From NCBI RefSeq assembly GCF_013122565.1, contig NZ_CP053258.1: a stretch of 64,000 nucleotides of DNA, one strand, 5' to 3'. The notes under the pieces were generated by a model. The model did not search any database and had not been told where the DNA came from. It saw nothing but the letters and a program-made list of their open reading frames with translations. How positions within the stretch are numbered: the stretch's first letter is position 1; each line of letters begins with the position of its first letter. Position numbers and translations under genes: made by a program. The DNA is from Escherichia coli (GTDB lineage: Bacteria > Pseudomonadota > Gammaproteobacteria > Enterobacterales > Enterobacteriaceae). Of the stretch, positions 35,217 to 60,847 are shown one piece after another.

Positions 35217-36617
35217 ATGCCACATTCCTACGATTACGATGCCATAGTAATAGGTTCCGGCCCCGGCGGCGAAGGCGCTGCAATGGGCCTGGTTAAGCAA
35301 GGTGCGCGCGTCGCAGTTATCGAGCGTTATCAAAATGTTGGCGGCGGTTGCACCCACTGGGGCACCATCCCGTCGAAAGCTCTCCGTCACGCCGTCAGCC
35401 GCATTATAGAATTCAATCAAAACCCACTATACAGCGACCATTCCCGACTGCTCCGCTCTTCTTTTGCCGATATCCTTAACCATGCCGATAACGTGATTAA
35501 TCAACAAACGCGCATGCGTCAGGGATTTTACGAACGTAATCACTGTGAAATATTGCAGGGGAACGCTCGCTTTGTTGACGAGCATACGTTGGCGCTGGAT
35601 TGCCCGGACGGCAGCGTTGAAACACTAACCGCTGAAAAATTTGTTATTGCCTGCGGCTCTCGTCCATATCATCCAACAGATGTTGATTTCACCCATCCAC
35701 GCATTTACGACAGCGACTCAATTCTCAGCATGCACCACGAACCGCGCCATGTACTTATCTATGGTGCTGGAGTGATCGGCTGTGAATATGCGTCGATCTT
35801 CCGCGGTATGGATGTAAAAGTGGATCTGATCAACACCCGCGATCGCCTGCTGGCATTTCTCGATCAAGAGATGTCAGATTCTCTCTCCTATCACTTCTGG
35901 AACAGTGGCGTAGTGATTCGTCACAACGAAGAGTACGAGAAGATCGAAGGCTGTGACGACGGTGTGATCATGCATCTGAAGTCGGGTAAAAAACTGAAAG
36001 CTGACTGCCTGCTCTATGCCAACGGTCGCACCGGTAATACTGATTCGCTGGCGTTACAGAACATTGGGCTGGAAACTGACAGTCGCGGACAGCTGAAGGT
36101 CAACAGCATGTATCAGACCGCACAGCCGCACGTTTACGCGGTGGGCGACGTGATTGGTTATCCGAGCCTGGCATCAGCGGCCTATGACCAGGGGCGCATT
36201 GCCGCGCAGGCGCTGGTGAAAGGTGAAGCCACCGCACATCTGATTGAAGATATCCCTACCGGCATTTACACCATCCCGGAAATCAGCTCTGTGGGCAAAA
36301 CCGAACAGCAGCTGACCGCGATGAAAGTGCCATATGAAGTGGGCCGCGCCCAGTTCAAACATCTGGCACGTGCACAAATCGTCGGCATGAACGTGGGCAC
36401 GCTGAAAATTTTGTTCCATCGGGAAACAAAAGAGATTCTGGGCATTCACTGCTTTGGCGAGCGCGCTGCCGAAATTATTCATATCGGTCAGGCGATTATG
36501 GAACAGAAAGGTGGCGGCAACACTATTGAGTACTTCGTCAACACCACCTTTAACTACCCGACGATGGCGGAAGCCTATCGGGTAGCTGCGTTAAACGGTT
36601 TAAACCGCCTGTTTTAA
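35217..36617 (+). CDS. sthA: soluble pyridine nucleotide transhydrogenase SthA (UdhA)
   Basis: 466 aa [28 protein letters not shown]... (FAD-binding GxGxxG). Confidence 0.96.
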
Positions 36618-37517
36618 CACTTTATCGAAATGGCCATCCATTCTTGCGCGGATGGCCTCTGCCAGCTGCTCATAGCGGCTGCGCAGCGGTGAGCCAGGAC
36701 GATAAACCAGGCCAATAGTGCGGCGTGGTTCCGGCTTAATGCACGGCAGATAAACAACCCCATCGCGTTTGCGTTCCGGCGGCACAGCCAGCGCTGGCAA
36801 TAAAGTGATCCCGCTACCTGCCGCCACCATGTTGCGCAGCGTCTCCAGGCTGGTCGCGCGGAAGTGTGTATCTTCATCCGCCCCGGCTTCAAAACAGAAA
36901 CCCATTGCCTGATCGCGCAAACAGTGACCATCTTCCAGCATCAGCAGTTTTTCCCCTGCCAGATCGGCCATCGGTACGCATTCGCGGTTCGCCCACGGGT
37001 GATCTTCATAGATAGCCAGCAACATTGGCTCATCAAACAACGGCACTTCAATGAATGCTTCGCTCTCTTTCACCAGCGCGAGGATCACGCAATCGAGTTT
37101 GCCGCTGTCCAGTTGCGCCAGTAACTGGTGGGTCTGTGCTTCATGCAGATACATTTCCAGCTTTGGAAAGGTCTGGTGCAGCATCGGGATAATATGCGGT
37201 AGCAGGTACGGTCCAACCGTGGGAATCAAACCAATATGCAGCGGTCCGGACATCGTCTCGCCCTGCTGGCTTGCCATCTCTTTAAGGACTTTCACCTCAC
37301 GCAGCACGGTACGCGCCTGATCCACCAGCAGCATTCCCGCCTGGGTGAACAACACTTTACGGCTGGTCCGCTCCAGCAACATCACGCCCAGCTCATCTTC
37401 CAGCTTACGAATTTGCCCGCTAAGCGTCGGCTGGCTAACGTGGCAGGAATCTGCTGCACGCCGAAAATGGCGGTGTTCAGCCAATGCCACCAGGTACTCA
37501 AGATCACGAATATTCAT
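36600..37517 (-). CDS. oxyR: LysR-family oxidative-stress regulator OxyR
   Basis: 305 aa from [40 protein letters not shown]; convergent with and overlapping the sthA 3' end. Confidence 0.97.
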
Positions 37518-37612
37518 TATCCATCCTCCATCGCCACGATAGTTCATGGCGATAGGTAGAATAGCAATGAACGATTATCCCTATCAAGCATTCTGACTGA
37601 TAATTGCTCACA
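37518..37612. promoter_or_regulatory. oxyR-oxyS divergent promoter region with OxyR operator
   Basis: 95-bp interval between the oxyR start codon and the oxyS 5' end; position-based call. Confidence 0.6.
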
Positions 37613-37721
37613 GAAACGGAGCGGCACCTCTTTTAACCCTTGAAGTCACTGCCCGTTTCGAGAGTTTCTCAACTCGAATAACTAAAGCCAACGTGAACTT
37701 TTGCGGATCTCCAGGATCCGC
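37613..37721 (+). ncRNA. oxyS: OxyS small regulatory RNA
   Basis: Sequence GAAACGGAGCGGCACCTCTTTTAACCCTTGAAGTCACTGCCCGTTTCGAGAGTTTCTCAACTCGAATAACTAAAGCCAACGTGAACTTTTGCGGATCTCCAGGATCCGC matches remembered oxyS. Confidence 0.93.
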
Positions 37722-37730
37722 TTTTTTTTT
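37702..37730 (+). terminator. oxyS intrinsic terminator
   Basis: Stem gcggatc-tccag-gatccgc followed by T10. Confidence 0.9.
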
Positions 37731-37770
37731 TATTCTACAGGCCCACAACAAGAGAGCCTGATAGTAACGG

Positions 37771-39054
37771 TTACTCAATGCGATCTTTGACAATAAAGAA
37801 GTAACACAACGCCCCGGTGAACGTCACACAGGCCGCGATAACCAACGCCAGATTAAACGAGTGTGTGGTATCCACTACCCAACCGGTTACGATCGGAGCA
37901 AAGGAAGCAAAAACAAAACTGCCAAAGTTTTGAATCCCGGCGATGGAAGCCACTTTTGTTTCTGACACCATCACCTGCACCAGTCCCCATGCAGACGTTC
38001 CCGCGAAATGCACGCAGAATAGCGCCATTGAGATAAACGCTACCGCCTGAGCTGGCGAGGAAGATTGCACGACCAGCAACGTGCCTAATGCCGACATCAT
38101 CAAACCGCAGACAATAGCCGTTTTACGCGTCTTCGCCAGGTCGTAGCCTTTTTTCGCCAGTCGATCGACAACAATACCGTTTACCCACATCCCGACTGCC
38201 GCCGCGAGGAAAGGAATCGCCGCCACCCAACCGGTTTTCGCCAGACTGAAACCTTGCTCGGCCTGCAAATAACCGGGTAACCACGCGATGTAGAGCCAAC
38301 CGGTATAATTGACGCCAGAGAAACCTAAAATCATCCCCCAGGTTGTCCGATGCTTAAACAGCGCCAGCCACTCGCTAAATTGCAGCTGTGGACGCGGTTT
38401 AACCGGCGCGGAGAGATACGTCCGTTCTTCGTCAGTCAGGACAAACTGCGCCCGGTTGCGATACCACGCGTACCAACAGATCCCAACCAGAATCCCCGCC
38501 ACGCCGATGATGACGAACATCGTCCGCCAGCCCCATGCCAGCTGCATCAATACAAGAGCAGGAGGCGCGATAGCCTGACCGATAACGGTAGATGAGTTAA
38601 AAATCCCCAGCGCCGTGCCGCGTTCTTTTTGTGCATACCAGTCGGTGATCGACTTTACTCCCGCAGGCATAAATGGCGCTTCGCCAATACCCAGACCGAT
38701 ACGCATTAAAATAAAGTGGCTAAAAGAATTAACCATTCCTGTTAATGCCTGCATTAATGACCAGAATATTAAGCCTGCGCCTAAAACTATTCGTGGGCCA
38801 AAGCGGTCTAGCAAAATACCGGAAGGAAGTTGTGAAAAACCATAAGACAGAGAAAATGCAGAAAGCAAAAAACCAAACTCTGTCGCTGATAATCCTAACT
38901 CGCCACGAATCGCTTCGCCTGCCACGCTCAATGACGAACGGTCGAGAAAATTAACGATCCCCGCCATAAATAATAAAACCAGGGTCACTGTCTGAATACG
39001 ACGAATCCGTTGCGGTTTATTACCCGCAACACTGGTTGACACATCAACGTCCAT
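37771..39054 (-). CDS. MFS transporter, anion:cation symporter (ACS) family, putative sugar-acid (hexonate/hexuronate) permease
   Basis: 427 aa ORF, about 12 predicted TM segments, ACS-like N-terminus (LVLLFMAGIVNFLDRSSLSVAG, LDRFGPR); AAGGAG RBS 7 nt upstream of ATG; not present at this locus in K-12. Confidence 0.85.
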   Translation of the reverse strand: MDVDVSTSVAGNKPQRIRRIQTVTLVLLFMAGIVNFLDRSSLSVAGEAIRGELGLSATEFGFLLSAFSLSYGFSQLPSGILLDRFGPRIVLGAGLIFWSLMQALTGMVNSFSHFILMRIGLGIGEAPFMPAGVKSITDWYAQKERGTALGIFNSSTVIGQAIAPPALVLMQLAWGWRTMFVIIGVAGILVGICWYAWYRNRAQFVLTDEERTYLSAPVKPRPQLQFSEWLALFKHRTTWGMILGFSGVNYTGWLYIAWLPGYLQAEQGFSLAKTGWVAAIPFLAAAVGMWVNGIVVDRLAKKGYDLAKTRKTAIVCGLMMSALGTLLVVQSSSPAQAVAFISMALFCVHFAGTSAWGLVQVMVSETKVASIAGIQNFGSFVFASFAPIVTGWVVDTTHSFNLALVIAACVTFTGALCYFFIVKDRIE

Positions 39055-39120
39055 TTTTAGCTCCTTGAGCGGAATTAATCGATTTGATGACTATTCAGAA
39101 AATAATTAAGCGAACCGTTA

Positions 39121-40335
39121 TTACCAGTTCCACAATGTGCCATCTTCCAGTCGTGCGACGGGGAGATACGCCGGGTCATACGGATATTTCGCCGCCAGTT
39201 TCTCATCGAAAGAAATACCCAGCCCCGGTTCATCGCCTGGGTGCATATAACCTTCATCGAAGCGCCAGCTGTGCGGGAAGACTTCAAGCATTTGTTCGGA
39301 ATAGCCCATGTACTCCTGAACGCCAAAGTTTGGCACCCAGAGGTCAAAATGCAGCGCCGCCGCATGACAAACAGGCGATAAATCTGAAGGGCCATGCGAA
39401 CCGGTACGTACCTGATAAAGCGATGCAAAATCGGCAATCCGTCGCATCCCGGTAATGCCGCCTGCATGGGTAATCGTCGTGCGAATATAGTCAATCAGCT
39501 GCTCTTCGATTAACTGCTTGCAGTCCCAGATACTGTTAAACACTTCACCGACCGCAATCGGCGTCACGGTGTGCTGGCGAATCAGACGGAAACATTCCTG
39601 GTTCTCGGCAGGCGTAGGATCTTCCATCCAGAACAGGCGGTAATCCTCAATGCTCTTCCCAAAGCGCGCCGCTTCGATGGGGGTCAGGCGATGGTGCATG
39701 TCATGCAACAGATGTTCGTTAAAACCGAACTTATTACGCACCGCTTCAAATAACTTCGGCGTAAAATCGAGATACTTTTCTGAAGACCACAACTGCTCTT
39801 CTGGCCACAGGCCTTTGGTTGCCGGTTCATACGCCAGTCCTTTGCCCTTCGCCAGGCCATAAGTGGTTTGCATACCCGGTACACCACACTGCACACGAAT
39901 CGCCTTAAAGCCCATGTGCTGGTGCTTTGCATAGTCTTCAAGGACTTCATCAATCGTACGCCCGGTGGTGTGGCAATAAACCATCACGCCTTCACGAGAA
40001 GCACCACCAAGCAGTTGATACAATGGCATATTTGCCGCTTTAGCTTTGATATCCCACAACGCCATATCAATGGCAGAAATGGCTGACATCGTGACGGGGC
40101 CACGTCGCCAGTAAGCACCTTTATAAAAGAATTGCCAGATATCTTCGATACGGCTGGCATCGCGGCCAATTAGTTGTGGACAAAGATGATCTTTCAGATA
40201 AGAAGCGACCGACAATTCGCGACCATTTAACGTGGCATCTCCTAATCCACAAAGTCCGCTTTCAGTGGTTATTTTAAGCGTAACGAAATTACGCCCTGGG
40301 CAAGTAACAAAAACATCCGCAGCAATAATTTTCAT
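39121..40335 (-). CDS. enolase-superfamily dehydratase, ManD/RspA-like (putative D-mannonate or related acid-sugar dehydratase)
   Basis: 405 aa from [25 protein letters not shown]... ending ...[22 protein letters not shown]; closely resembles remembered RspA; AGGAG RBS; ORF track extends 20 codons upstream. Confidence 0.85.
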
Positions 40336-40744
40336 TATTGCAATCTCCTGTGTTGTAAATAGACGTTTCAAACTTAATTTTACGCCTACTACCATACAAG
40401 AGAGAAAAAGCGATTATTCAACCGTGATCACATTAAAAACAAAAATTTCCATCGAGGAGAAAAAATACCCTCAAAAACCACCTGAATAATTAACCATTAT
40501 CGTTAAAACAACACGTTAAATAATCACATAACAAACTCCATTAATCATTAAAAATGGGCACAGCAATAGAAAATAATTATATTCAATTAATTAAAACATG
40601 CATTGGTTGATGTATTGAAAATATGATTTTTATGGGGGGGAGTGAAGGTAAAGAAGACACAATAATAAAAAGGAATATGACAAATAATGGTTCTGGTTGG
40701 ACGTTAAATTTAAGGTCACCAGAATGATGACAAATTTCTGCCTG

Positions 40745-40795
40745 ATGCGGCGTAAACGCCTTATCCGCCTACGAAGTGTCGCACTTTGTAGGCGT
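40745..40795. repeat. REP (repetitive extragenic palindrome) element downstream of argH
   Basis: gcctgatgcggcgtaaacgccttatccgcctac... typical REP consensus. Confidence 0.7.
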
Positions 40796-40800
40796 GGTAA

Positions 40801-40821
40801 ACTCCCCATTTTCAGGGGAGC
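40801..40821 (-). terminator. argH terminator-like hairpin
   Basis: ctcccc-attttca-ggggag inverted repeat immediately after argH stop; weak U-tract. Confidence 0.5.
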
Positions 40822-40833
40822 AATATAAACAAA

Positions 40834-42207
40834 TTACTCTAACCGAGCCTGCGCAAAAGCAATTGCCTGCGCCACCTGCTGCGGTGAGACGCCGCCTTTT
40901 GCCGCACGCTTGTCGAGGCACGATTGTAGCGACAGAATCGGATAGACATCTTCGCCAATCACCTGACTGAATTTCTGCAACTCACTGAGTGGCAGATCTT
41001 CCAGCGGTTTGCCCTGACGAATGGCTTCCACCACCGCTTCACCCACAATATGGTGCGCCTCGCGGAAAGGTACGCCTTTCGCCACCAGGTAATCCGCCAG
41101 TTCGGTGGCGTTGGCGTAACCCTGCTGAGCCGCTTCCTGGCAACGTGGACGTTTCACCTGAATGCCGTCCAGCACCAGCGCCGCCATATGCAGGCAGTCC
41201 AGCCAAGTATCGAGCGCGTCGAACAGACCTTCTTTGTCTTCCTGCATATCTTTGTTGTAAGCCAGCGGCAAACCTTTCAGCGTCATCATCATGCCAGTTA
41301 ACGCGCCCTGCACCCGACCACATTTACCGCGAATCAGCTCCAGCGCATCCGGGTTTTTCTTCTGCGGCATTAATGATGAACCGGAAGTCACGCGGTCAGA
41401 AAGCTCCACAAACCCCGCTTCGCCGGTGTTAAAGAAAATCAGATCTTCAGCAAAACGCGACAGATGCACCATGCCGATAGCGGCAGCAGAAAGCAGTTCC
41501 AGCACGTGGTCACGGTCAGAAACGCTGTCGAGACTGTTACGGGTCGCTGAAGCAAAACCCAGCCAGCCAGCTAACTGTTCACGGTCGATTTCATAAGCCG
41601 TTCCCGCCAGCGCGCCACAGCCTAACGGACTGACATCCAGACGCTTAAGCGCATCCTGCAAACGGCTTTCATCACGCGCCAGCATCTCAACATAGGCCAG
41701 GCACCAGTGCGCGAACGTCACCGGCTGGGCGCGTTGCAGGTGAGTGTAACCTGGCATGACCGCGTCCTGATTGTTTTGTGCGGTTTCCACCAGCGCCGAT
41801 TGCAGCTGCCGGTTAGCCGTCAGCAACTCGCCAACGGTATCTTTGCACCACAGTTTCAGGTCTGTCGCTACCTGATCATTACGACTACGCCCGGTATGCA
41901 GCTTTTTGCCTAACTGGCCCACTTTGTCGATCAGTTTGCCTTCCACCCAGCTATGAATATCTTCGGCGTCGCTTTCGAGGATTTGTTGTGGCCTGGCGCG
42001 AACATCTTCCAGCAGCACGTTCAGCGCCTCTTCCAGTTGCGCCTGCTCTTCTGCGGTTAACACGCCGACCGTTACCAGGGCTTTGGACCAGGCCACAGAG
42101 CCAACAATATCCTGCTCCGCCAGACGGTAATCAAAGCGCAGTGAGTCGTTGAATTGTTTGAACCGTTGATCTGCTGCCTGGGTAAAACGCCCGCCCCAAA
42201 GTGCCAT
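40834..42207 (-). CDS. argH: argininosuccinate lyase
   Basis: 457 aa [40 protein letters not shown]... Confidence 0.98.
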
Positions 42208-42267
42208 AACTCTGTTTCCTTATTTTGAAATTCAATGCCGGAAAGCTGCGCCTCCGGCTAACAAAAC

Positions 42268-43044
42268 TTAAGCTAAAATCCGCGTACCCATCGGCATACC
42301 GTTAAACAGTGCCGGAAGCTGTTCCGCATGACGCCAGGAGGCGATATCTACCGGACGGCCCAACGTGCGCGCAGCATCCAGCGCCGCGTTCACTTTCACT
42401 ATCATGCCGTCAGTAATAATACCCTGCTCAATCAGTTGTTCTGCTTTCGCGGCGGTCATTTCGGCAATACGTTGCCCTTTGCCGTCGAGAATGCCACTGA
42501 CGTCGGAGAGCAAAATCAGATCCGCGCCCAGCGTTGCCGCCAGCGCCGTTGCCGCCTGATCGGCATTGACATTCATCAGTTGCCCTTCGTCTGTTACGCC
42601 AATGGAGCTGACCACCGGCAGATAACCGTTCTCCAGCAAGGTGTTGATAAGCTTAGGCGAACCTGGCTGCGCCAGTCCAACATGGCCTAACTCTTCATCA
42701 AGCTGGGTCACTTTGACGCTGTCGCCGTCACCGAGAAACAAACCTACGGCCGCAATCTGATGTTTCTTCGCCCATGCCAGCAGGGTTTTATTTGCCGTTC
42801 CCGCCAGTGCTCCGGTGATAATGTCTATCTGATCCGCAGGCGTCACCCGCAGGCCGTTTTTCTTTTTCACTGGCAGATTCAGCCCTTTCATCAGCTCATC
42901 CACCACGCAACCGCCGCCGTGGACAATCACCAGCGGACGCTGATGTGACTCACGATAATTCACCAGTGCGCTAAACAGACGTTCCAGCGCCTCTTCACTA
43001 TCCAGCAGTACGCCACCCAGTTTGATAATTAATGGATTCATCAT
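42268..43044 (-). CDS. argB: acetylglutamate kinase
   Basis: 258 aa from [20 protein letters not shown]; ORF track extends 11 codons upstream. Confidence 0.96.
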
Positions 43045-43051
43045 TGCACCC

Positions 43052-44056
43052 TTAAATAAGAGACTGCGTTTCCGCATAGCCGAAACGAATATTGGCGCAC
43101 TGTACCGCTTGTGCCGCCGCGCCTTTCAGTAAGTTGTCTTCGGTCGCCACAATAATCAGATGCTCACCCTGAACGGCAAACCCGATATCGCAAAATGGCA
43201 GCCCAACGACATTTTTCAGCGCCGGAACGCCTTTGTCATACAGACGCACCAGCGGTTTATGGGCATACGCCTGCTGTAATGCCTGCGCCACTTGCGCCTG
43301 GCTCACGCCCGGTTTCAGGCGGCAGGTAATGGTTTCGAGAATGCCGCGCGGGAAATTGCCCAGATGCGGGGTGAAGATAACGTCAGCACCGAGGTGTGTG
43401 GCGATCTCTGGTTGATGGCGATGGGTAAAGACGCCATACGGTTGCAGGCTAACTTCACAAAAACTATTTGAAATCGCTGCCTTACGTCCTGCACCGCTCA
43501 CGCCGCTGGTGGCGTTGATCACTGGCCACTGATTGAGGTCAAGAAGATCGGCATCAATCAACGGTTTCAGCGCCAACTGTGCTGCCGTCGGATAACAGCC
43601 TGGTACCGCAATCAAATTCGCTTCTTTTAATTTATTACCGCACCACTCCGCCAGACCGTAGGCTGCCTGTTCCAGCAGTTCCGGGTATTGATGGGTAAAG
43701 CCGTAATATTTTTCATAGAAGGTGGCGTCGTTAACACGAAACGCGCCGGAAAGGTCGAACACCACGCAGCCCGCTTCAAGAAACTGCGGCGCTAAATCGT
43801 GGCTAACTTCATGGGCAGTGGCGAGAAACACCACGTCCACCCCTGGGCTAAACTCGCTGATATCCGACATCGGCTGCAACGGCAGATCAACGATGCCTTT
43901 TAGCTGCGGATGCAAATCGGAGATTAACTTTCCCGCATCATTGCTTTGCGCTGAAACAGTCAAAGCGGTTATGTTCATATGCGGATGGCGATTTACATAG
44001 GTCACTAGCTCTGCGCCAGCGTAGCCGCTGGCACCCACAATCAGCGTATTCAACAT
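43052..44056 (-). CDS. argC: N-acetyl-gamma-glutamyl-phosphate reductase
   Basis: 334 aa [30 protein letters not shown]... Confidence 0.97.
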
Positions 44057-44139
44057 CGGGGCTATTCACCTTCTTATGTCTGGTTGCCAGGTTAAACGTA
44101 AAACATTCACCTTACGGCTGGTGGGTTTTATTACGCTCA

Positions 44140-44190
44140 ACGTTAGTGTATTTTTATTCATAAATAATGCATGAATATTGATACTATCAT
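44140..44190. promoter_or_regulatory. ArgR operator (ARG boxes) in the divergent argE / argCBH control region
   Basis: A/T-rich tattcat / tgaatat half-site motifs between the divergent starts. Confidence 0.6.
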
Positions 44191-44209
44191 GACCAGAGGT
44201 GTGTCAACA

Positions 44210-45361
44210 ATGAAAAACAAATTACCGCCATTTATCGAGATTTACCGTGCTCTGATTGCCACACCTTCAATAAGCGCCACGGAAGAGGCACTCGATCAAA
44301 GCAATGCAGATTTAATCACTCTGCTGGCGGACTGGTTTAAAGATTTAGGCTTCAATGTGGAAGTGCAGCCTGTGCCAGGAACTCGCAACAAATTTAATAT
44401 GCTGGCCAGTTGCGGACAGGGGGCTGGCGGCTTGTTGCTGGCGGGGCATACCGATACGGTGCCATTTGATGACGGTCGCTGGACGCGCGATCCGTTTACA
44501 CTGACGGAGCATGACGGCAAGCTTTACGGCTTAGGCACCGCCGACATGAAAGGCTTTTTTGCGTTTATCCTCGATGCGCTACGCGATGTCGACGTTACGA
44601 AGCTTGCAAAACCGCTCTACATTCTGGCGACTGCCGATGAAGAAACCAGTATGGCCGGAGCGCGTTATTTTGCCGAAACTACCGCCCTGCGCCCGGATTG
44701 CGCCATCATTGGCGAACCGACGTCACTACAACCGGTACGCGCACATAAAGGTCATATCTCTAACGCCATCCGTATTCAGGGCCAGTCGGGGCACTCCAGC
44801 GATCCAGCACGCGGAGTTAACGCTATCGAACTAATGCACGACGCCATCGGGCATATTTTGCAATTGCGCGATAACCTGAAAGAACGTTATCACTACGAAG
44901 CGTTTACCGTGCCATACCCTACGCTCAACCTCGGGCATATTCACGGTGGCGACGCTTCTAACCGTATTTGCGCTTGCTGTGAGTTGCATATGGATATTCG
45001 TCCGCTGCCTGGCATGACACTCAATGAACTTAATGGTTTGCTCAACGATGCATTGGCTCCGGTGAGCGAACGCTGGCCGGGTCGTCTGACGGTCGACGAG
45101 CTGCATCCGCCGATCCCTGGCTATGAATGCCCACCGAATCATCAACTGGTTGAAGTGGTTGAGAAATTGCTCGGAGCAAAAACCGAAGTGGTGAATTACT
45201 GTACCGAAGCGCCGTTTATTCAAACGTTATGCCCGACGCTGGTTCTGGGGCCTGGCTCAATTAATCAGGCTCATCAGCCTGATGAATATCTGGAAACACG
45301 GTTTATCAAGCCCACCCGCGAACTGATAACCCAGGTAATTCACCATTTTTGCTGGCATTAA
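44210..45361 (+). CDS. argE: acetylornithine deacetylase
   Basis: 383 aa from [23 protein letters not shown]; divergent from argC. Confidence 0.96.
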
Positions 45362-45364
45362 AAC

Positions 45365-45465
45365 GTAGGCCGGATAAGGCGCTCGCGCCGCATCCGGCAC
45401 TGTTGCCAAACGCCAGCGCTGCAATAATGTCGGATGCGATGCTTGCGCATCTTATCCGACCTACG
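45365..45465. repeat. REP/BIME element pair between argE and ppc
   Basis: Inverted REP copies gtaggccggataaggcgctcgcgccgcatccggcac and gtcggatgcgatgcttgcgcatcttatccgacctac. Confidence 0.8.
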
Positions 45466-45712
45466 CCTTTGGTGTTAATTGAGGCGATTTTTTAACATTC
45501 CCATAAGTTACGCTTATTTAAAGCGTCGTGAATTTAATGGCGTAAATTCCTGCTATTTATTCGTTTGCTGAAGCGATTTCGCAGCATTTGACGTCACCGC
45601 TTTTACGTGGCTTTATAAAAGACAACGAAAAGCAAAGCCCGAGCATATTCGCGCCAATGCGACGTGAAGGATACAGGGCTATCAAACGATAAGATGGGGT
45701 GTCTGGGGTAAT

Positions 45713-48364
45713 ATGAACGAACAATATTCCGCATTGCGTAGTAATGTCAGTATGCTCGGCAAAGTGCTGGGAGAAACCATCAAGGATGCGTTGGGAGAAC
45801 ACATTCTTGAACGCGTAGAAACTATCCGTAAGTTGTCCAAATCTTCACGCGCTGGCAATGATGCTAACCGCCAGGAGTTGCTCACCACCTTACAAAATTT
45901 GTCGAACGACGAGCTGCTGCCCGTTGCGCGTGCGTTTAGTCAGTTCCTGAACCTGGCCAACACCGCCGAGCAATACCACAGCATTTCGCCGAAAGGCGAA
46001 GCTGCCAGCAACCCGGAAGTGATCGCCCGCACCCTGCGTAAACTGAAAAACCAGCCGGAACTGAGCGAAGACACCATCAAAAAAGCAGTGGAATCGCTGT
46101 CGCTGGAACTGGTCCTCACGGCTCACCCAACCGAAATTACCCGTCGTACACTGATCCACAAAATGGTGGAAGTGAACGCCTGCTTAAAACAGCTCGATAA
46201 CAAAGATATCGCTGACTACGAACACAACCAGCTGATGCGTCGCCTGCGCCAGTTGATCGCCCAGTCATGGCATACCGATGAAATCCGTAAGCTGCGTCCA
46301 AGCCCGGTAGATGAAGCCAAATGGGGCTTTGCCGTAGTAGAAAACAGCCTGTGGCAAGGCGTACCGAATTACCTGCGCGAACTGAACGAACAACTGGAAG
46401 AGAACCTCGGCTACAAACTGCCCGTCGAATTTGTTCCGGTGCGTTTTACCTCGTGGATGGGCGGTGACCGCGACGGCAACCCAAACGTCACTGCCGATAT
46501 CACCCGCCACGTCCTGCTACTCAGCCGCTGGAAAGCCACCGATCTGTTCCTGAAAGATATTCAGGTTCTGGTTTCTGAACTGTCGATGGTTGAAGCGACC
46601 CCTGAACTGCTGGCGCTGGTTGGCGAAGAAGGTGCCGCAGAACCGTATCGCTATCTGATGAAAAACCTGCGTTCTCGCCTGATGGCGACACAGGCATGGC
46701 TGGAAGCGCGCCTGAAAGGCGAAGAACTGCCAAAACCAGAAGGCCTGCTGACACAAAACGAAGAACTGTGGGAACCGCTCTACGCTTGCTACCAGTCACT
46801 TCAGGCGTGTGGCATGGGTATTATCGCCAATGGCGATCTGCTCGACACCCTGCGCCGCGTGAAATGTTTCGGCGTACCGCTGGTCCGTATTGATATCCGT
46901 CAGGAGAGCACACGTCATACCGAAGCGCTGGGCGAGCTGACCCGCTACCTCGGTATCGGCGACTACGAAAGCTGGTCAGAGGCCGACAAACAGGCGTTCC
47001 TGATCCGCGAACTGAACTCCAAACGTCCGCTTCTGCCGCGCAACTGGCAACCAAGCGCCGAAACGCGCGAAGTGCTCGATACCTGCCAGGTGATTGCCGA
47101 AGCGCCGCAAGGCTCCATTGCCGCCTACGTGATCTCGATGGCGAAAACGCCGTCCGACGTGCTGGCTGTCCACCTGCTGCTGAAAGAAGCGGGTATCGGG
47201 TTTGCAATGCCGGTTGCTCCGCTGTTTGAAACCCTCGATGACCTGAACAACGCCAACGATGTCATGACCCAGCTGCTCAATATCGACTGGTATCGCGGCC
47301 TGATTCAGGGCAAACAGATGGTGATGATTGGCTATTCCGACTCAGCAAAAGATGCGGGCGTGATGGCAGCGTCCTGGGCGCAATATCAGGCACAGGATGC
47401 ATTAATCAAAACCTGCGAAAAAGCGGGTATTGAGCTGACGTTGTTCCACGGTCGCGGCGGTTCCATTGGTCGTGGCGGCGCACCTGCTCATGCGGCGCTG
47501 CTGTCACAACCGCCAGGAAGCCTGAAAGGTGGCCTGCGCGTGACTGAACAGGGCGAGATGATCCGCTTTAAATATGGTCTGCCAGAAATCACCGTCAGCA
47601 GCCTGTCGCTGTACACCGGGGCGATTCTGGAAGCCAACCTGCTGCCACCACCTGAGCCGAAAGAGAGCTGGCGTCGCATTATGGATGAACTGTCAGTCAT
47701 CTCCTGCGATCTCTACCGTGGCTACGTACGTGAAAACAAAGATTTTGTGCCTTACTTCCGCTCCGCTACGCCGGAACAAGAACTGGGCAAACTGCCGTTG
47801 GGTTCACGTCCGGCGAAACGTCGCCCAACCGGCGGCGTCGAGTCACTACGCGCCATTCCGTGGATCTTCGCCTGGACGCAAAACCGCCTGATGCTCCCCG
47901 CCTGGCTGGGTGCAGGAACAGCGCTGCAAAAAGTGGTCGAAGACGGCAAACAGAGCGAGCTGGAGGCTATGTGCCGCGATTGGCCATTCTTCTCGACGCG
48001 TCTCGGCATGCTGGAGATGGTCTTCGCCAAAGCAGATCTGTGGCTAGCGGAATACTATGACCAACGCCTGGTAGACAAAGCACTGTGGCCGTTAGGTAAA
48101 GAGTTACGCAATCTGCAAGAAGAAGACATCAAAGTGGTGCTGGCGATTGCCAACGATTCCCATCTGATGGCCGATCTGCCGTGGATTGCAGAGTCTATTC
48201 AGCTACGGAATATTTACACCGACCCGCTGAACGTATTGCAGGCCGAGTTGCTGCACCGCTCCCGCCAGGCAGAAAAAGAAGGCCAGGAACCGGATCCTCG
48301 CGTCGAACAAGCGTTAATGGTCACTATTGCCGGGATTGCGGCAGGTATGCGTAATACCGGCTAA
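45713..48364 (+). CDS. ppc: phosphoenolpyruvate carboxylase
   Basis: 883 aa [39 protein letters not shown]... ending ...MRNTG. Confidence 0.99.
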
Positions 48365-48546
48365 TCTTCCTCTTCTGCAAACCCTCGTGCTTTTGCGCGA
48401 GGGTTTTCTGAAATACTTCTGTTCTAACACCCTCGTTTTCAATATATTTCTGTCTGCATTTTATTCAAATTCTGAATATACCTTCAGATATCCTTAAGGA
48501 ATTGTCGTTACATTCGGCGATATTTTTTTCAAGACAGGTTCTTACT

Positions 48547-50280
48547 ATGCATTCCACAGAAGTCCAGGCTAAACCCCTTTTTAGCTGGAAAGCCCTGGGT
48601 TGGGCACTGCTCTACTTTTGGTTTTTCTCTACTCTGCTACAGGCCATTATTTACATCAGTGGTTATAGTGGCACTAACGGCATTCGCGACTCGCTGTTAT
48701 TCAGTTCGCTGTGGTTGATCCCGGTATTTCTCTTTCCGAAGCGGATTAAAATCATTGCCGCAGTGATCGGCGTGGTGCTATGGGCGGCCTCTCTGGCGGC
48801 GCTGTGCTACTACGTCATCTACGGTCAGGAGTTCTCGCAGAGCGTTCTGTTTGTGATGTTTGAAACCAACACCAACGAAGCCAGCGAGTATTTAAGCCAG
48901 TATTTCAGCCTGAAAATTGTGCTTATCGCGCTGGCCTATACGGCGGTGGCTGTTCTGCTGTGGACACGCCTGCGCCCGGTCTATATTCCAAAGCCGTGGC
49001 GTTATGTTGTCTCTTTTGCCCTGCTTTATGGCTTGATTCTGCATCCGATCGCCATGAATACGTTTATCAAAAACAAGCCGTTTGAGAAAACGTTGGATAA
49101 CCTGGCCTCGCGTATGGAGCCTGCCGCACCGTGGCAATTCCTGACCGGCTATTATCAGTATCGTCAGCAACTAAACTCGCTAACAAAGCTACTGAATGAA
49201 AATAATGCCTTGCCGCCGCTGGCTAATTTCAAAGATGAATCGGGTAACGAACCGCGCACCTTAGTGCTGGTGATTGGCGAGTCAACCCAGCGTGGACGCA
49301 TGAGTCTGTACGGTTATCCGCGTGAAACCACGCCGGAGCTGGATGCGCTGCATAAAACCGATCCGAATCTAACCGTGTTTAATAACGTAGTTACGTCTCG
49401 TCCGTACACCATTGAAATCCTGCAACAGGCGCTGACCTTTGCCAATGAAAAGAACCCGGATCTGTATCTGACGCAGCCGTCGCTGATGAACATGATGAAA
49501 CAGGCGGGTTATAAAACCTTCTGGATCACCAACCAGCAGACGATGACCGCCCGCAATACCATGCTGACGGTATTTTCGCGCCAGACCGACAAGCAGTACT
49601 ACATGAACCAGCAACGTACGCAGAGTGCTCGTGAATACGACACTAACGTGCTGAAGCCGTTCCAGGAAGTGCTGAAGGACCCTGCGCCGAAGAAACTGAT
49701 CATTGTTCATCTGCTGGGTACGCATATCAAATACAAATACCGCTACCCGGAAAATCAGGGCAAGTTTGATGGCAATACCGATCATGTTCCGCCGGGATTA
49801 AACGCGGAAGAGCTGGAGTCATATAACGATTATGACAACGCTAACCTGTATAACGATCATGTGGTTGCCAGCCTGATTAAAGACTTTAAAGCAGCAGACC
49901 CGAACGGTTTCCTGGTTTACTTCTCTGACCACGGTGAAGAGGTTTACGACACGCCGCCTCATAAAACCCAGGGGCGTAATGAGGACAACCCGACGCGTCA
50001 TATGTACACCATTCCGTTCCTGCTGTGGACGTCGGAAAAATGGCAAGCGACTCATCCGCGTGATTTCTCGCAGGATGTTGATCGTAAATACAGCCTGGCG
50101 GAACTGATCCACACCTGGTCAGATTTGGCGGGCTTATCTTACGACGGTTACGATCCAACCCGTTCAGTGGTGAATCCGCAGTTCAAAGAAACTACCCGCT
50201 GGATTGGTAACCCGTATAAGAAAAACGCACTGATCGATTACGACACGCTGCCGTATGGCGATCAGGTGGGTAATCAGTAA
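48547..50280 (+). CDS. eptC: phosphoethanolamine transferase EptC (YijP)
   Basis: 577 aa from MHSTEVQAKPLFSWKALGW; N-terminal TM segments plus sulfatase-like domain. Confidence 0.93.
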   Translation: MHSTEVQAKPLFSWKALGWALLYFWFFSTLLQAIIYISGYSGTNGIRDSLLFSSLWLIPVFLFPKRIKIIAAVIGVVLWAASLAALCYYVIYGQEFSQSVLFVMFETNTNEASEYLSQYFSLKIVLIALAYTAVAVLLWTRLRPVYIPKPWRYVVSFALLYGLILHPIAMNTFIKNKPFEKTLDNLASRMEPAAPWQFLTGYYQYRQQLNSLTKLLNENNALPPLANFKDESGNEPRTLVLVIGESTQRGRMSLYGYPRETTPELDALHKTDPNLTVFNNVVTSRPYTIEILQQALTFANEKNPDLYLTQPSLMNMMKQAGYKTFWITNQQTMTARNTMLTVFSRQTDKQYYMNQQRTQSAREYDTNVLKPFQEVLKDPAPKKLIIVHLLGTHIKYKYRYPENQGKFDGNTDHVPPGLNAEELESYNDYDNANLYNDHVVASLIKDFKAADPNGFLVYFSDHGEEVYDTPPHKTQGRNEDNPTRHMYTIPFLLWTSEKWQATHPRDFSQDVDRKYSLAELIHTWSDLAGLSYDGYDPTRSVVNPQFKETTRWIGNPYKKNALIDYDTLPYGDQVGNQ

Positions 50281-50353
50281 ATGACCTATGTATCGCGTCT
50301 GGCGCTATTTGCCGGATGCGATACTGGCACAATGTTTACATCTCACTTCCATC

Positions 50354-50381
50354 AGGCCACACTTTTCAGGTGGCCTTTTTT
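50354..50381 (+). terminator. eptC terminator
   Basis: aggccac-loop-gtggcct stem followed by T6. Confidence 0.7.
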
Positions 50382-50428
50382 CATAATGCCAGTTACTGTT
50401 TTCCCGTCTACATACCTAAGGGAATAAC

Positions 50429-51280
50429 ATGTATCACGACGTCAGCTATCTGCTCTCCCGCCTGATCAACGGCCCGCTGTCCCTGCGCCAGATTTACTTT
50501 GCAAGCAGTAACGGCCCGGTGCCCGATCTTGCGTATCAGGTCGATTTTCCACGACTGGAAATTGTGCTGGAAGGTGAGTTTGTTGATACCGGCGCTGGAG
50601 CAACGTTAGTTCCCGGCGATGTGCTGTACGTTCCCGCTGGTGGCTGGAATTTTCCACAATGGAAAACACCCGCGACCACCTTTAGCGTGCTGTTTGGCAA
50701 ACAGCAACTCGGCTTCAGCGTCGTGCAATGGGATGGCAAACAATATCAAAATCTGGCGAAGCAACACGTCGCCCGACGCGGCCCACGCATAGGTTCTTTT
50801 CTGCTACAAACGCTCAATGAAATGCAAATGCAGTCGCAGGAGCAGCAAACGGCAAGGCTTATCGTCGCCAGCCTGCTTAGCCACTGCCGCGATTTGCTTG
50901 GCAGCCAAATCCAGACCGCCTCACGCAGCCAGGCACTGTTCGAAGCTATTCGTGATTATATCGACGAACGCTACGCCTCCGCGCTTACCCGCGAATCTGT
51001 CGCACAGGCATTCTATATTTCACCAAACTATCTCTCGCACCTGTTTCAAAAAACGGGGGCCATTGGTTTTAACGAATACCTGAATCACACGCGACTGGAG
51101 CACGCCAAGACGTTATTGAAAGGCTATGACCTGAAGGTAAAAGAAGTGGCGCACGCCTGCGGCTTTGTCGACAGCAACTACTTCTGCCGTCTGTTTCGTA
51201 AAAACACCGAACGCTCGCCGTCGGAATATCGCCGGCAGTACCACAGCCAACTGACAGAAAAACCGACTACTCCAGAATAA
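50429..51280 (+). CDS. yijO: AraC-family transcriptional regulator YijO
   Basis: 283 aa ORF with C-terminal AraC HTH. Confidence 0.9.
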   Translation: MYHDVSYLLSRLINGPLSLRQIYFASSNGPVPDLAYQVDFPRLEIVLEGEFVDTGAGATLVPGDVLYVPAGGWNFPQWKTPATTFSVLFGKQQLGFSVVQWDGKQYQNLAKQHVARRGPRIGSFLLQTLNEMQMQSQEQQTARLIVASLLSHCRDLLGSQIQTASRSQALFEAIRDYIDERYASALTRESVAQAFYISPNYLSHLFQKTGAIGFNEYLNHTRLEHAKTLLKGYDLKVKEVAHACGFVDSNYFCRLFRKNTERSPSEYRRQYHSQLTEKPTTPE

Positions 51281-51608
51281 GATGGGTTTGCTGCGGCGCA
51301 GAAAGCACTTTGCGCACCGCGCTCATTACCCGCTGCGGCTCACGCAGGAATGCGTAGATGCTGCATTGCACATAGCGGCAATGTTCAAATCGCTCGGCAC
51401 CGGCAAGCTCGATATCCGTAATTAACAGCGCAACATCCGCCCGGCGGATATCCTCGTCCGCTAAACGATTCTCCGTTCCCAGCGCGCCCTGAGTTTCAAT
51501 GCTGATGACCCACTTCTCTAACTGGCACAACTTTTCCAGCCGTTCCGCCGCCATATAAGTATGCGCCACGCCGCTTACGCAGGCGGTTACTGCCACCAGG
51601 TATGCCAT
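51267..51608 (-). CDS. frwD: PTS fructose-like IIB component FrwD
   Basis: 113 aa from MAYLVAVTACVSGVAHTYMAAERLEK (IIB Cys motif). Confidence 0.9.
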   Translation of the reverse strand: MAYLVAVTACVSGVAHTYMAAERLEKLCQLEKWVISIETQGALGTENRLADEDIRRADVALLITDIELAGAERFEHCRYVQCSIYAFLREPQRVMSAVRKVLSAPQQTHLILE

Positions 51609-51609
51609 T

Positions 51610-52488
51610 TTAACCTCCCACGGTAACCTGAAATCCGGCCCGTTCTGCCATTTCGCGCATCGTTGCCACATCAGCTGACGACGGCGCAGGCACCTCTTTC
51701 ATCGACCATGTTTTCCCCAGCAGGCGGTATTTCGGTTCGCCGTACTGATGAAACGGTAACAGATGGATCTGCCTGATATTCAGCGGGATCAGCACGTCCA
51801 GCGCCTGCTGCATATTCTCCCGGCTGAGCGTGAAACCAGGGATCAGCGGTAAACGCGGGATCACGTTGACACCCTCACTCACCAGCAAACGCAGATTCTC
51901 CACCACGCGTGGCAGGTTCATCTTCACCACATCCCGCGCCTGAGTCGCATCCATGATTTTTAAATCGAACAACACTTCATCGCACAATTTCGCCAGTGGT
52001 AACAGCTTGCTTGCTGGCGCGTCTCCGGCAGTTTCAATGGCGCATGACACCCCCCACAGCCGCAGTCGCTGTAAAAAACGGGTAGCAAACTCCGCCTGCA
52101 TTAACACTTCGCCGCCAGAAAGCGTGACGCCGCCGCCGGACGTGCGAAAGAAAATGTCATCTTTCATCACTTCCCGTTCCAGCGCGTCAAGGCTGATATC
52201 GCGACCAATCCGTTCAAACGCCCCGGAGGGGCATTCATCCGCATCACGCAAACATTTCGCACAGTGCAGACATTTCGCCTCTCTGCGTACCGTCTGGATT
52301 TTGCCGGAGATCGACTCCGGATTAGCACACCACGGGCAAAGATGCGGACAGCCTTTAAAAAAGACCACCGTACGAATGCCCTCACCGTCATTCAGTGAAT
52401 AACGCTGAATGTTGAAAATGCGCGCCACATCATTGCGGCGCGTTTCCACAACGTTACAGCTGATGCGCTGTCCGGCGGATGATGTCAT
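51610..52488 (-). CDS. pflC: glycyl-radical enzyme activating protein PflC
   Basis: 292 aa from MTSSAGQRIS... with radical-SAM CPHLCPWC and ferredoxin-like Cys clusters. Confidence 0.93.
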   Translation of the reverse strand: MTSSAGQRISCNVVETRRNDVARIFNIQRYSLNDGEGIRTVVFFKGCPHLCPWCANPESISGKIQTVRREAKCLHCAKCLRDADECPSGAFERIGRDISLDALEREVMKDDIFFRTSGGGVTLSGGEVLMQAEFATRFLQRLRLWGVSCAIETAGDAPASKLLPLAKLCDEVLFDLKIMDATQARDVVKMNLPRVVENLRLLVSEGVNVIPRLPLIPGFTLSRENMQQALDVLIPLNIRQIHLLPFHQYGEPKYRLLGKTWSMKEVPAPSSADVATMREMAERAGFQVTVGG

Positions 52489-54751: not shown

Positions 54752-54801
54752 GAGGAACTCCTGTGGGAAAGCGAACCCGCCCTTGCGAGCGGGAGAAGAA
54801 C

Positions 54802-55122: not shown

Positions 55123-55136
55123 GGCTCGTTCCTCAA

Positions 55137-59026: not shown

Positions 59027-59037
59027 AAGGAAACATC

Positions 59038-59700: not shown

Positions 59701-59710
59701 AGGAGCAATT

Positions 59711-60814: not shown

Positions 60815-60822
60815 CCTACTCC

Positions 60823-60847
60823 AAACTCCCGGCTTGTCCGGGAGTTT
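60823..60847 (+). terminator. gldA terminator-like hairpin
   Basis: aaactcccgg-cttgt-ccgggagttt perfect inverted repeat after gldA stop; weak T tail. Confidence 0.55.

What the first reader, a model, noticed from the sequence alone, without database searches (positions are those of the whole stretch)
37613..39054. Inserted operon is convergent on oxyS with no intervening terminator for the minus strand
The MFS gene stops at 37771, only 50 nt from the 3' end of plus-strand oxyS. The only strong hairpin in between is the oxyS terminator, whose U-tract is on the plus strand; read in the minus direction the stem is followed by AAAAG, not a U-run. Read-through from the inserted operon would therefore be antisense to OxyS and could continue toward the oxyR promoter. 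This could couple sugar-acid operon expression to the OxyS/OxyR oxidative-stress circuit in strains carrying the insert.
Basis: inference. Interest (0 to 1): 0.4.

Follow-up and report, generated by a model that had tools for sequence, protein, structure and literature searches.

The report
Terminator-less sugar-acid operon facing oxyS
In about a third of E. coli strains a two-gene sugar-acid operon ends about 40-50 bases from the peroxide-stress small RNA gene oxyS with no recognisable stop signal of its own, so its transcripts probably run backwards across oxyS, but this layout is common in bacteria and no regulatory effect has been shown.

Summary
OxyS lies at 37613-37722 (+). An MFS transporter gene ends at 37771 (-), downstream of manD in the same operon. 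No minus-strand hairpin between them is followed by a U-run. The minus-strand RNA across oxyS is G-rich and structured, so it is a poor Rho loading site.

K-12 has only 54 bp here, and they hold a proper argH terminator. In this allele 3,104 bp replace that spacer. About 34% of complete E. coli genomes and three other Escherichia species carry the same allele with a conserved spacer. The operon is a second copy of the rspA/ydfJ-type module and keeps an rspA-type promoter core.

Two corrections apply. First, oxyR is on the same strand as the operon, so read-through would be antisense to OxyS and then sense to oxyR. Second, a missing U-run does not prove read-through, because E. coli can stop convergent transcription at a hairpin by polymerase collision.

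About half of the gene ends in this window also lack a terminator-like site. Read-through across oxyS is likely. Coupling to the OxyS/OxyR circuit is untested. Interest is modest.

The parts
36600..37517 (-). oxyR coding sequence (305 aa). It is co-directional with the manD-MFS operon.
   Evidence: NCBIfam OxyR equivalog NF008361, 632.8 bits, aligned from residue 11 of the listed ORF. ATG at 37517 preceded by GGAGGA.
37518..37612 (.). Divergent oxyR/oxyS promoter region. It holds the ATAG/CTAT-rich OxyR operator (about 37551-37589).
   Evidence: Sequence read. Minus-strand promoter-like sites at 37603->37574 and 37587->37558. OxyR binding and autorepression here are established knowledge recalled from memory, not tested.
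37613..37731 (+). oxyS small RNA gene, including its terminator hairpin (37703-37721) and T10 run (37722-37731).
   Evidence: Rfam RF00035 37613-37722, 139.5 bits. Terminator dG -11.2, tail score -6.62.
37617..37655 (-). Complement of the OxyS 5' stem-loop. It is the only minus-strand hairpin with any terminator-like tail, and it lies after the whole oxyS antisense has been made.
   Evidence: dG -10.0, tail TTTCTGTGAGC, score -4.04, about the 1st percentile of random 15-mers. It forms in the 201-nt minimum-energy fold.
37735..37764 (-). Hairpin just downstream of the MFS stop codon, followed by AAUA(10). It is a likely pause site or 3' stabiliser, not an intrinsic terminator.
   Evidence: dG -12.8 to -13.9, tail score -1.77. 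Conserved in E. coli carriers apart from one loop SNP. Partly degraded in Escherichia sp. MOD1-EC7003.
37771..39054 (-). MFS transporter gene (427 aa) of the D-galactonate-transporter subfamily type. By recollection (not tested) it resembles K-12 ydfJ.
   Evidence: TIGR00893 5.5e-82. RefSeq annotation 'MFS transporter'. 87% identical orthologues sit in the rspA locus of Raoultella, Kluyvera and Cedecea.
39121..40335 (-). manD, a D-mannonate dehydratase of the enolase superfamily (404 aa) and a paralogue of rspA.
   Evidence: NCBIfam ManD equivalog NF043051, 732 bits against a cutoff of 550. 92-94% aa identity to RspA of E. coli, Raoultella, Kluyvera and Cedecea.
40388..40434 (-). rspA-type promoter core upstream of manD: invariant CTTGTATGGTAGT (40388-40400) and TGTGATC (within 40422-40434).
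   Evidence: Alignment with rspA upstream regions of four genera. The RspR box ATACnnGTAT (PMC8249747) reads TCTCttGTAT here, so one half-site is lost.
40610..40750 (-). C-rich, G-poor untranslated tract downstream of argH. It is rut-like and would insulate the manD promoter from argH read-through.
   Evidence: C/G ratio 2.0-6.7 in 78-nt windows. The region 40336-40740 is 30% GC.
40740..40793 (-). REP-type palindromic element.
   Evidence: Sequence read, coordinates. A sub-threshold naRNA4 (REP-derived) Rfam match at 40690-40770 overlaps part of it, 30.8 bits.
40802..40821 (-). argH-proximal hairpin GCUCCCC-UGAAAA-UGGGGAG followed by UUUACC. It is a weak terminator that takes the place of the K-12 argH terminator.
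   Evidence: dG -10.7, tail score -3.54.
40834..42207 (-). argH (argininosuccinate lyase).
   Evidence: TIGR00838 715.6 bits. RefSeq annotation.
37730..40833 (.). The 3,104-bp segment that replaces the 54-bp K-12 spacer between the oxyS T-run and the argH stop codon.
   Evidence: The BLAST junctions are window 37729 = L001 1730 and window 40834 = L001 1785. The K-12 RV308 spacer is identical to L001.

Best explanation
The segment is a second, translocated copy of the enterobacterial rspA/MFS sugar-acid module, here manD plus an MFS transporter gene. It has replaced the short K-12-type oxyS-argH spacer, including the argH terminator.

The operon is driven by an rspA-type promoter (inferred). 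It ends 39-48 nt from the oxyS 3' end with no intrinsic terminator of its own and no rut-like tract (shown in silico). When the operon is on and oxyS is off, a sizeable fraction of its transcripts most likely continues through two U-less hairpins and across all of oxyS. That would create a 3' extension perfectly complementary to OxyS (inferred).

These transcripts probably end heterogeneously at several places:
- the weak hairpin at the far end of oxyS (37655->37617);
- the OxyR-occupied promoter region, acting as a roadblock;
- through Rho acting on the borderline C-rich stretch at 37625->37540.

A minority may enter oxyR in the sense direction (inferred). 3' exonucleases then likely trim the RNA back to the stable hairpins. 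When peroxide turns oxyS on strongly, head-on collisions at the hairpins should block the read-through.

The net effect on OxyS or OxyR levels is probably small. Induced OxyS is very abundant, and the operon is probably weakly and conditionally expressed.
For: - Gene identities and geometry.
- No minus-strand terminator-like site between 37613 and 37770 in the tool scan or in my exhaustive hairpin and tail scan. Tail scores are -1.62 and -1.77 for the two hairpins, against -6.62 for the oxyS terminator and -4.83 for the K-12 argH terminator.
- The minus-strand RNA from 37775 to about 37630 has C/G 0.57-0.81 and folds tightly (201 nt, -60.9 kcal/mol, z -3.2), which is poor for Rho.
- Internal contrast: the argH side of the same segment has a hairpin, a REP element and a tract with C/G 2-6.7.
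- The K-12 allele has back-to-back terminators at this place.
- The spacer is conserved in six diverse E. coli carriers and U-less in three other Escherichia species.
- The allele is in 1860-1867 of 5426 complete genomes.
- Origin of the module.
- Conserved rspA-type promoter core.
- Hairpin-plus-collision termination requires the convergent partner to be transcribed.
Against: - No transcript data were available. Everything about read-through is prediction.
- Hairpins without U-tracts can still pause RNA polymerase, and E. coli uses such elements as collision-type bidirectional terminators.
- Rho can act on poor rut sites in untranslated RNA.
- The strength and inducing conditions of the manD promoter are unknown. 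One half of the RspR box is lost and the upstream region is 30% GC, so H-NS silencing is possible.
- About half of gene ends in this window lack a recognisable terminator, yet genomes are not flooded with functional antisense RNA.
Confidence: 0.55

Rival explanations
1. Hairpin-pause or collision-type termination. The two stem-loops (37735-37764 and the complement of the oxyS terminator, 37703-37721) trap RNA polymerase coming from the MFS gene. Transcripts end at a defined position before or at the oxyS 3' end, so little antisense OxyS is made.
For: Two stable hairpins, -10 to -14 kcal/mol, lie exactly between the convergent 3' ends. Wang et al. describe E. coli bidirectional terminators that do not resemble intrinsic terminators. 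There a nascent-RNA stem-loop pauses polymerases and head-on plus trailing collisions release them.
Against: That mechanism needs polymerases arriving from the other side. oxyS is essentially silent without peroxide, and its own canonical T10 terminator should release rather than park its polymerases. On this model the block would exist only under oxidative stress. Hairpin 2 is not well conserved in Escherichia sp. MOD1-EC7003.
Confidence: 0.2
2. Rho-dependent termination soon after the MFS stop codon. Once ribosomes leave at 37771, Rho loads on the untranslated RNA and stops transcription within or just beyond oxyS. Exonucleases then trim back to hairpin 2.
For: There are 254 untranslated nucleotides between the MFS stop (37771) and the oxyR start (37517). 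Roughly half of E. coli transcription units are thought to end by Rho (general knowledge). Windows starting at 37625-37615 reach C/G 1.14-1.19.
Against: From 37775 to about 37630 the RNA is G-rich (C/G 0.57-0.81) and strongly structured, the opposite of a rut site. The only borderline C-rich stretch lies beyond oxyS, so even Rho termination would come after the OxyS antisense has been transcribed.
Confidence: 0.15
3. Read-through acts as a regulatory cis-antisense RNA and/or as transcriptional interference. It would lower OxyS, feed extra oxyR mRNA, or let OxyS destabilise the manD-MFS mRNA, coupling sugar-acid use to the peroxide response.
For: The geometry permits it. The arrangement is old and conserved across Escherichia species. 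In K-12, an oxyR P2 transcript overlapping OxyS by 41 nt has been linked to lower OxyS levels (PMC7967276). GadY/gadX shows that a convergent sRNA can control an mRNA through 3' overlap (recalled knowledge).
Against: No expression data exist. Conservation within Escherichia is explained by short divergence times. Induced OxyS is far more abundant than a conditional catabolic mRNA is likely to be. Two thirds of E. coli genomes lack the arrangement. Terminator-less convergent ends are common.
Confidence: 0.1
4. The question is moot. The operon is essentially silent under most conditions because of its AT-rich, possibly H-NS-bound upstream region and its repressor control, so there is nothing to read through.
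For: The 405 bp upstream of manD are 30% GC. No consensus-like minus-strand promoter passed the scan there. The homologous rspA promoter is repressed by RspR. Some carriers have truncated MFS genes, for example 335 aa in ECONIH1 and 399-aa forms.
Against: The rspA-type -10 region and upstream TGTGATC are invariant across genera and retained here. Half of the RspR operator is lost, which would if anything relieve repression. Both ORFs are intact and 98-99% conserved down to E. whittamii.
Confidence: 0.15

Closest known systems
K-12-type oxyS-argH junction (back-to-back unidirectional terminators)
   Same: Same flanks. oxyS and its terminator are followed by a convergent minus-strand operon (argCBH), with oxyR downstream on the minus strand.
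   Different: K-12 has a dedicated minus-strand terminator (AGCCUGGC-UUAUC-GCCGGGCU + UUUUUAUGG, dG -14.2, tail -4.83) in a 54-bp spacer. Here that spacer is replaced by 3,104 bp, and the new convergent gene has no such terminator.
GadY / gadX-gadW: a cis-encoded small RNA overlapping the 3' end of a convergent mRNA (recalled from the literature, not tested)
   Same: A small-RNA gene convergent with the 3' end of a protein-coding operon. Any overlap would be perfectly complementary and a potential RNase III substrate.
   Different: For GadY the overlap and its effect on gadX mRNA are demonstrated experimentally. Here the overlap is only predicted. OxyS is a well-known trans-acting, Hfq-dependent sRNA with its own strong terminator.
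Collision-driven bidirectional terminators between convergent E. coli genes (Ju et al. 2019, as cited in Wang et al.; 10.1101/2022.10.23.513370)
   Same: Stem-loops sit between convergent 3' ends. There is no canonical U-tract for one direction and no rut-like signature.
   Different: Those elements work when both genes are transcribed. Here one partner (oxyS) is peroxide-inducible and has an efficient canonical terminator of its own. No 3'-end data exist for this locus.
Transcriptional interference between convergent promoters, and 'excludon'-type long antisense read-through (recalled: Shearwin/Callen/Egan; Listeria excludons)
   Same: Read-through from one unit would run antisense over the neighbour and across its promoter.
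   Different: The interfering promoter is about 2.8 kb away and of unknown strength. No reciprocal expression pattern has been shown.
rspA-(rspB)-MFS sugar-acid module under the GntR-type repressor RspR/YdfH
   Same: ManD is 92-94% identical to RspA and the MFS is 87% identical to the transporter of that locus. The promoter core CTTGTATGGTAGT and upstream TGTGATC are shared.
   Different: The module sits at oxyS/argH instead of ynfA. It has no rspB and no adjacent regulator gene. One half of the RspR box ATACnnGTAT is lost (TCTCttGTAT).

Membership tests
OxyS RNA (Rfam RF00035) | Covariance-model score above the gathering threshold; divergent from oxyR | tested here: met
   139.5 bits against 75, full-length 1-110. 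oxyR is divergent at 36600-37517.
Canonical intrinsic terminator serving the minus strand | GC-rich hairpin immediately followed by a U-rich tract on the transcribed strand | tested here: not met
   Both hairpins between 37700 and 37770 have tail scores of -1.62 and -1.77 (random mean -2.05; oxyS terminator -6.62). No site in the tool scan.
Symmetric bidirectional intrinsic terminator | One hairpin flanked by an A-tract upstream and a U-tract downstream, so that both strands see a U-tail | tested here: not met
   The plus-strand flank upstream of the oxyS stem is AACTTTT, which gives AAAAGTT on the minus strand.
Collision-type bidirectional terminator (Ju 2019 / Wang 2022) | Stem-loop-encoding element between convergent genes | tested here: met
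   Hairpins at 37703-37721 and 37735-37764.
Collision-type bidirectional terminator (Ju 2019 / Wang 2022) | Overlapping, sharply defined 3' ends of both convergent transcripts that depend on convergent transcription | not testable with these tools
   Needs SEnd-seq or Term-seq data from a carrier strain.
Rho-dependent terminator | About 80 nt of C-rich, G-poor, unstructured untranslated RNA (rut) upstream of the release site | tested here: not met
   C/G is 0.57-0.81 for all 78-nt windows starting 37775-37635 and only 1.14-1.19 at 37625-37615. The region folds with z -3.2. The actual Rho dependence is not testable here.
cis-antisense sRNA / mRNA 3'-overlap pair (GadY-gadX type) | sRNA gene convergent with and adjacent to the mRNA 3' end | tested here: met
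   39-48 nt between the MFS stop and the oxyS 3' end.
cis-antisense sRNA / mRNA 3'-overlap pair (GadY-gadX type) | Demonstrated physical overlap of the two transcripts and an sRNA-dependent change in mRNA processing or stability | not testable with these tools
   No transcript data. A literature search found nothing for this locus.
D-mannonate dehydratase ManD/RspA subgroup (enolase superfamily) | Score above the curated NCBIfam equivalog cutoff | tested here: met
   NF043051 scores 732 bits against a cutoff of 550. 92-94% identity to RspA orthologues. Enzyme activity was not tested.
RspR (YdfH)-repressed promoter | RspR box ATACnnGTAT overlapping the promoter | tested here: inconclusive
   The right half-site GTAT and the flanking 13-mer are invariant. 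The left half-site reads TCTC instead of ATAC.
Mobile genomic island | Integrase or transposase, flanking direct or inverted repeats, tRNA target | tested here: not met
   No flanking repeats. Only two metabolic genes are present. The junctions fall exactly at the oxyS T-run and the argH stop.

The most novel reading that the evidence does not exclude
In the third of E. coli strains, and the other Escherichia species, that carry this allele, OxyS would have a natural cis-antisense partner as well as its trans-acting role. The terminator-less 3' extension of the manD-MFS mRNA would pair perfectly with OxyS. On this reading, peroxide-induced OxyS would trigger RNase III cleavage of the sugar-acid mRNA, as GadY does for gadX. 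In the other direction, starvation-induced operon transcription would damp OxyS and add autoregulation-independent oxyR mRNA. That would be a strain-specific rewiring of a textbook stress circuit, created by loss of the K-12 argH terminator.
Probability: 0.1. Interest if true: 0.55.

Novelty: new member of a known kind. Interest (0 to 1): 0.3.

Why it matters
OxyS/OxyR is a textbook stress circuit studied almost entirely in K-12, which has back-to-back terminators at this junction. About one third of sequenced E. coli carry a different junction, in which a conditionally expressed operon faces oxyS without a terminator. These include uropathogenic strains (UTI89, ABU 83972) and O104:H4. If read-through is substantial, OxyS and oxyR expression in these strains could differ from K-12 in a nutrient-dependent way. 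The locus would also be a natural two-allele test of how much a dedicated terminator matters between convergent genes. If read-through is not substantial, this is one more ordinary terminator-less operon end.

Tried and rejected
- **Second hairpin as a hidden terminator.** Rejected: hairpin 37735-37764 is followed by an A-run.
- **Independent antisense promoter.** I looked for a minus-strand promoter inside the spacer or the MFS 3' end. None passed the scan.
- **Mobile-element origin.** No repeats, integrase or tRNA. The sub-threshold naRNA4 hit is just the REP element.
- **K-12 spacer as a deletion remnant of the insert.** No similarity between the 54-bp spacer and the insert ends.
- **Outgroup scan with the exact 23-nt oxyS terminator.** It found only Escherichia genomes plus one unrelated MAG match (L011). 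The statement that oxyS abuts argH in Salmonella comes from PMC8825220.
- **Literature searches.** Searches for oxyS/argH terminators, bidirectional terminators at oxyS, antisense read-through at oxyS, and ManD in CFT073 gave no data on this locus.
- **61-aa minus-strand ORF antisense to oxyS (37608-37793).** Not pursued. It has a TTG start and was not searched for homologues or assessed for a ribosome-binding site.
- **First genome-contig scan attempt.** It failed for lack of a slot.
Full report
**What is in the sequence.** The window is a stretch of an Escherichia chromosome. The gene order is sthA (35217-36617, +), oxyR (36600-37517, -), oxyS (37613-37722 plus its T-run, +), an MFS transporter gene (37771-39054, -), manD (39121-40335, -), argH (40834-42207, -), then argB, argC, argE and ppc. 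OxyS matches Rfam RF00035 over its full length, at 139.5 bits against a threshold of 75. ManD passes the NCBIfam equivalog cutoff (732 against 550 bits). The transporter is of the D-galactonate-transporter subfamily type. RefSeq annotates the same two genes in the same place in E. coli UTI89 and many other strains.

**Checking the observation.** The MFS stop codon is at 37771-37773. The Rfam end of OxyS is 37722 and its T10 run ends at 37731, so the gap is 39-48 nt.

- On the plus strand the oxyS terminator is strong: 8-bp stem, dG -11.2, TransTerm-style tail score -6.62.
- Read on the minus strand, the same stem is followed by AAAAGTTCACG, tail score -1.62. Random 15-mers of the window average -2.05.
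Its dG of -12.8 to -13.9 makes it at least as stable as the oxyS stem. It is followed by AAUAAAAAAAAAA, tail score -1.77.
- Neither the built-in scan nor an exhaustive hairpin-plus-tail enumeration finds a minus-strand terminator-like site between the MFS stop and the far end of oxyS.
- The first site with any such character is the complement of the OxyS 5' stem-loop (37655->37617, dG -10, tail UUUCUGUG, score -4.04). It lies after the whole antisense has been made.

I also looked for a Rho loading site. All 78-nt windows of the minus-strand RNA starting between 37775 and 37635 have C/G of 0.57-0.81. The 201-nt stretch folds to -60.9 kcal/mol (z -3.2). Only windows starting at 37625-37615 reach C/G 1.14-1.19.

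**The comparison that gives it meaning.** In K-12 (RV308) and strain S30, the oxyS T-run is separated from the argH stop codon by only 54 bp. On the minus strand that spacer encodes a good terminator: AGCCUGGC-UUAUC-GCCGGGCU followed by UUUUUAUGG, dG -14.2, tail -4.83. BLAST puts the junctions exactly at the end of the oxyS T-run (window 37729/37730) and at the argH stop (40833/40834). So 3,104 bp replace the 54 bp, and the K-12 terminator is gone.

On the argH side the segment supplies a weak hairpin (40802-40821), a REP element (40740-40793) and a strongly C-rich, G-poor tract (C/G 2-6.7 at 40750->40610). That tract looks like a rut site. The argH side is therefore insulated and the oxyS side is not.

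**Distribution and origin.**

- The allele is in 1860-1867 of 5426 complete E. coli genomes, including UTI89, ABU 83972, O104:H4 and O103 strains.
- The MFS-oxyS spacer is nearly invariant among six diverse carriers. Only the T-run length (7-10), one loop SNP and substitutions at two positions (37769/37770) next to the MFS stop codon vary.
- The same colinear arrangement occurs in E. whittamii and Escherichia sp. E1V33, and the same oxyS-MFS-manD junction on the short contig of Escherichia sp. MOD1-EC7003. None has a minus-strand U-tract, and the last has a partly degraded hairpin 2.
- There are no flanking repeats, integrase or tRNA.
- In Raoultella, Kluyvera and Cedecea, the 87%-identical transporter sits in the ynfA-rspA locus beside an RspA dehydratase. 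In Kluyvera and Cedecea a 228-aa GntR-family gene lies nearby, probably the rspR/ydfH orthologue (inferred from size and family).
- ManD is 92-94% identical to those RspA proteins and to E. coli RspA.
- A published survey places oxyS directly in the oxyR-argH intergenic region of E. coli and Salmonella and notes that the region toward argH varies between families (PMC8825220).

'Inserted operon' is thus fair. It is a second copy of the rspA-type module that entered this site early in Escherichia and is now polymorphic in E. coli.

**Promoter.** The manD upstream region aligns with rspA upstream regions of four genera. It shares an invariant CTTGTATGGTAGT (40388-40400) and an upstream TGTGATC. 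In K-12 the rspA promoter is repressed by RspR (YdfH) through the palindrome ATACnnGTAT (PMC8249747). Here the left half-site reads TCTC. The operon therefore probably has a working, conditionally active promoter, possibly less tightly repressed than rspA. This is inference. The 405 bp upstream are only 30% GC, so silencing is also possible.

**How it most likely works.**

- Shown: the geometry, the lack of a canonical terminator and of a rut-like tract, and the K-12 contrast.
- Inferred: when the operon is transcribed and oxyS is quiet, many polymerases pass both hairpins and transcribe all of oxyS in antisense. They then stop heterogeneously at the weak hairpin at 37655->37617, at the OxyR-occupied operator (about 37551-37589; a roadblock, from general knowledge), or through Rho on the borderline tract.

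Any polymerase that gets through makes a sense oxyR transcript with a 254-nt leader. That would bypass OxyR autorepression.

Under peroxide the very strong oxyS promoter should win head-on encounters. Any remaining overlap RNA would pair with abundant OxyS.

**Why absence of a U-run is not proof.** Wang et al. report that E. coli has many 'bidirectional terminators' between convergent genes that do not resemble intrinsic terminators and do not need Rho. In these, a nascent-RNA stem-loop pauses polymerases, and head-on plus trailing collisions release them (10.1101/2022.10.23.513370). The two hairpins here could act that way, but only while oxyS is being transcribed.

In K-12, an oxyR P2 start 41 nt inside oxyS already gives a partial antisense overlap. 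The authors of that study link it to lower OxyS levels (PMC7967276). Antisense transcription over oxyS is therefore not unprecedented.

**Base rate and verdict.** With lenient criteria, 19 of 44 ORF-proxy gene ends in this window, and about half of the convergent ones, have no terminator-like site. This includes the sthA/oxyR pair, whose coding regions overlap by 18 bp. A terminator-less convergent end is common.

What is specific here is the partner, a well-studied sRNA, and the natural two-allele contrast with K-12. I rate read-through across oxyS as likely (about 0.55). Regulatory coupling is unlikely but not excluded (about 0.1). The finding is a new instance of a known kind of arrangement. 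It can be settled with existing strand-specific RNA-seq from carrier strains or a simple terminator-probe assay.

Noticed in passing
window 41000-61000 and 37500-41000: The window is only about 98% identical to the best of 5,426 complete E. coli genomes, and about equally distant from all of them. That suggests a divergent Escherichia lineage (for example a cryptic clade) rather than a mainstream E. coli strain. It is 92.8% identical to E. whittamii and 94.2% to Escherichia sp. E1V33 over this locus.
   Followed up: partly
window 36600-36617: The sthA (+) and oxyR (-) coding regions overlap by 18 bp at their 3' ends. No terminator-like site follows sthA, and only a weak one follows oxyR inside sthA. 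This is another terminator-poor convergent pair next door.
   Followed up: no
window 40388-40434: manD keeps the rspA-type promoter core (invariant CTTGTATGGTAGT and TGTGATC across four genera) but has lost the left half of the published RspR box, ATACnnGTAT -> TCTCttGTAT. UTI89 shows the same. This may mean altered repression of this paralogous operon.
   Followed up: partly
window 40610-40821: In the insert allele argH is followed by a weak hairpin, a REP element and a very C-rich, G-poor tract (C/G up to 6.7). Together they look like a composite Rho-type insulator in front of the manD promoter. A sub-threshold naRNA4 Rfam match (30.8 bits) overlaps part of the REP.
   Followed up: partly
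window 37722-37731: The oxyS terminator T-run, which is also the left junction of the segment, varies from 7 to 10 T among carriers and is 8 T in K-12. This could affect the OxyS 3' end or Hfq binding.
   Followed up: no
L005 (E. coli ECONIH1) and proteins P0003-P0010: Some carriers have shortened MFS annotations (335 aa in ECONIH1; 399-aa forms), which hints at decay or alternative starts of the transporter in part of the population.
   Followed up: no
L011 10756-10778: An exact 23-nt match to the oxyS terminator lies in a MAG labelled Acetatifactor. It lies in a locus with no match to any gene of this region and appears to be an unrelated palindrome-containing sequence, not an oxyS homologue.
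   Followed up: yes
window 37608-37793 (-): A 61-codon TTG-initiated ORF runs antisense through all of oxyS. It starts in the MFS 3' end in another frame. It is probably spurious, but it would lie on any read-through RNA.
   Followed up: no
L013-L015 (Raoultella, Kluyvera, Cedecea): The rspA locus differs in gene order between genera: MFS before or after rspA, with or without rspB, a mannitol-dehydrogenase-family gene, and in Kluyvera and Cedecea a 228-aa GntR-family regulator gene. In Raoultella a phage integrase abuts it, which recalls (from memory) the Qin prophage insertion at this locus in K-12.
   Followed up: no
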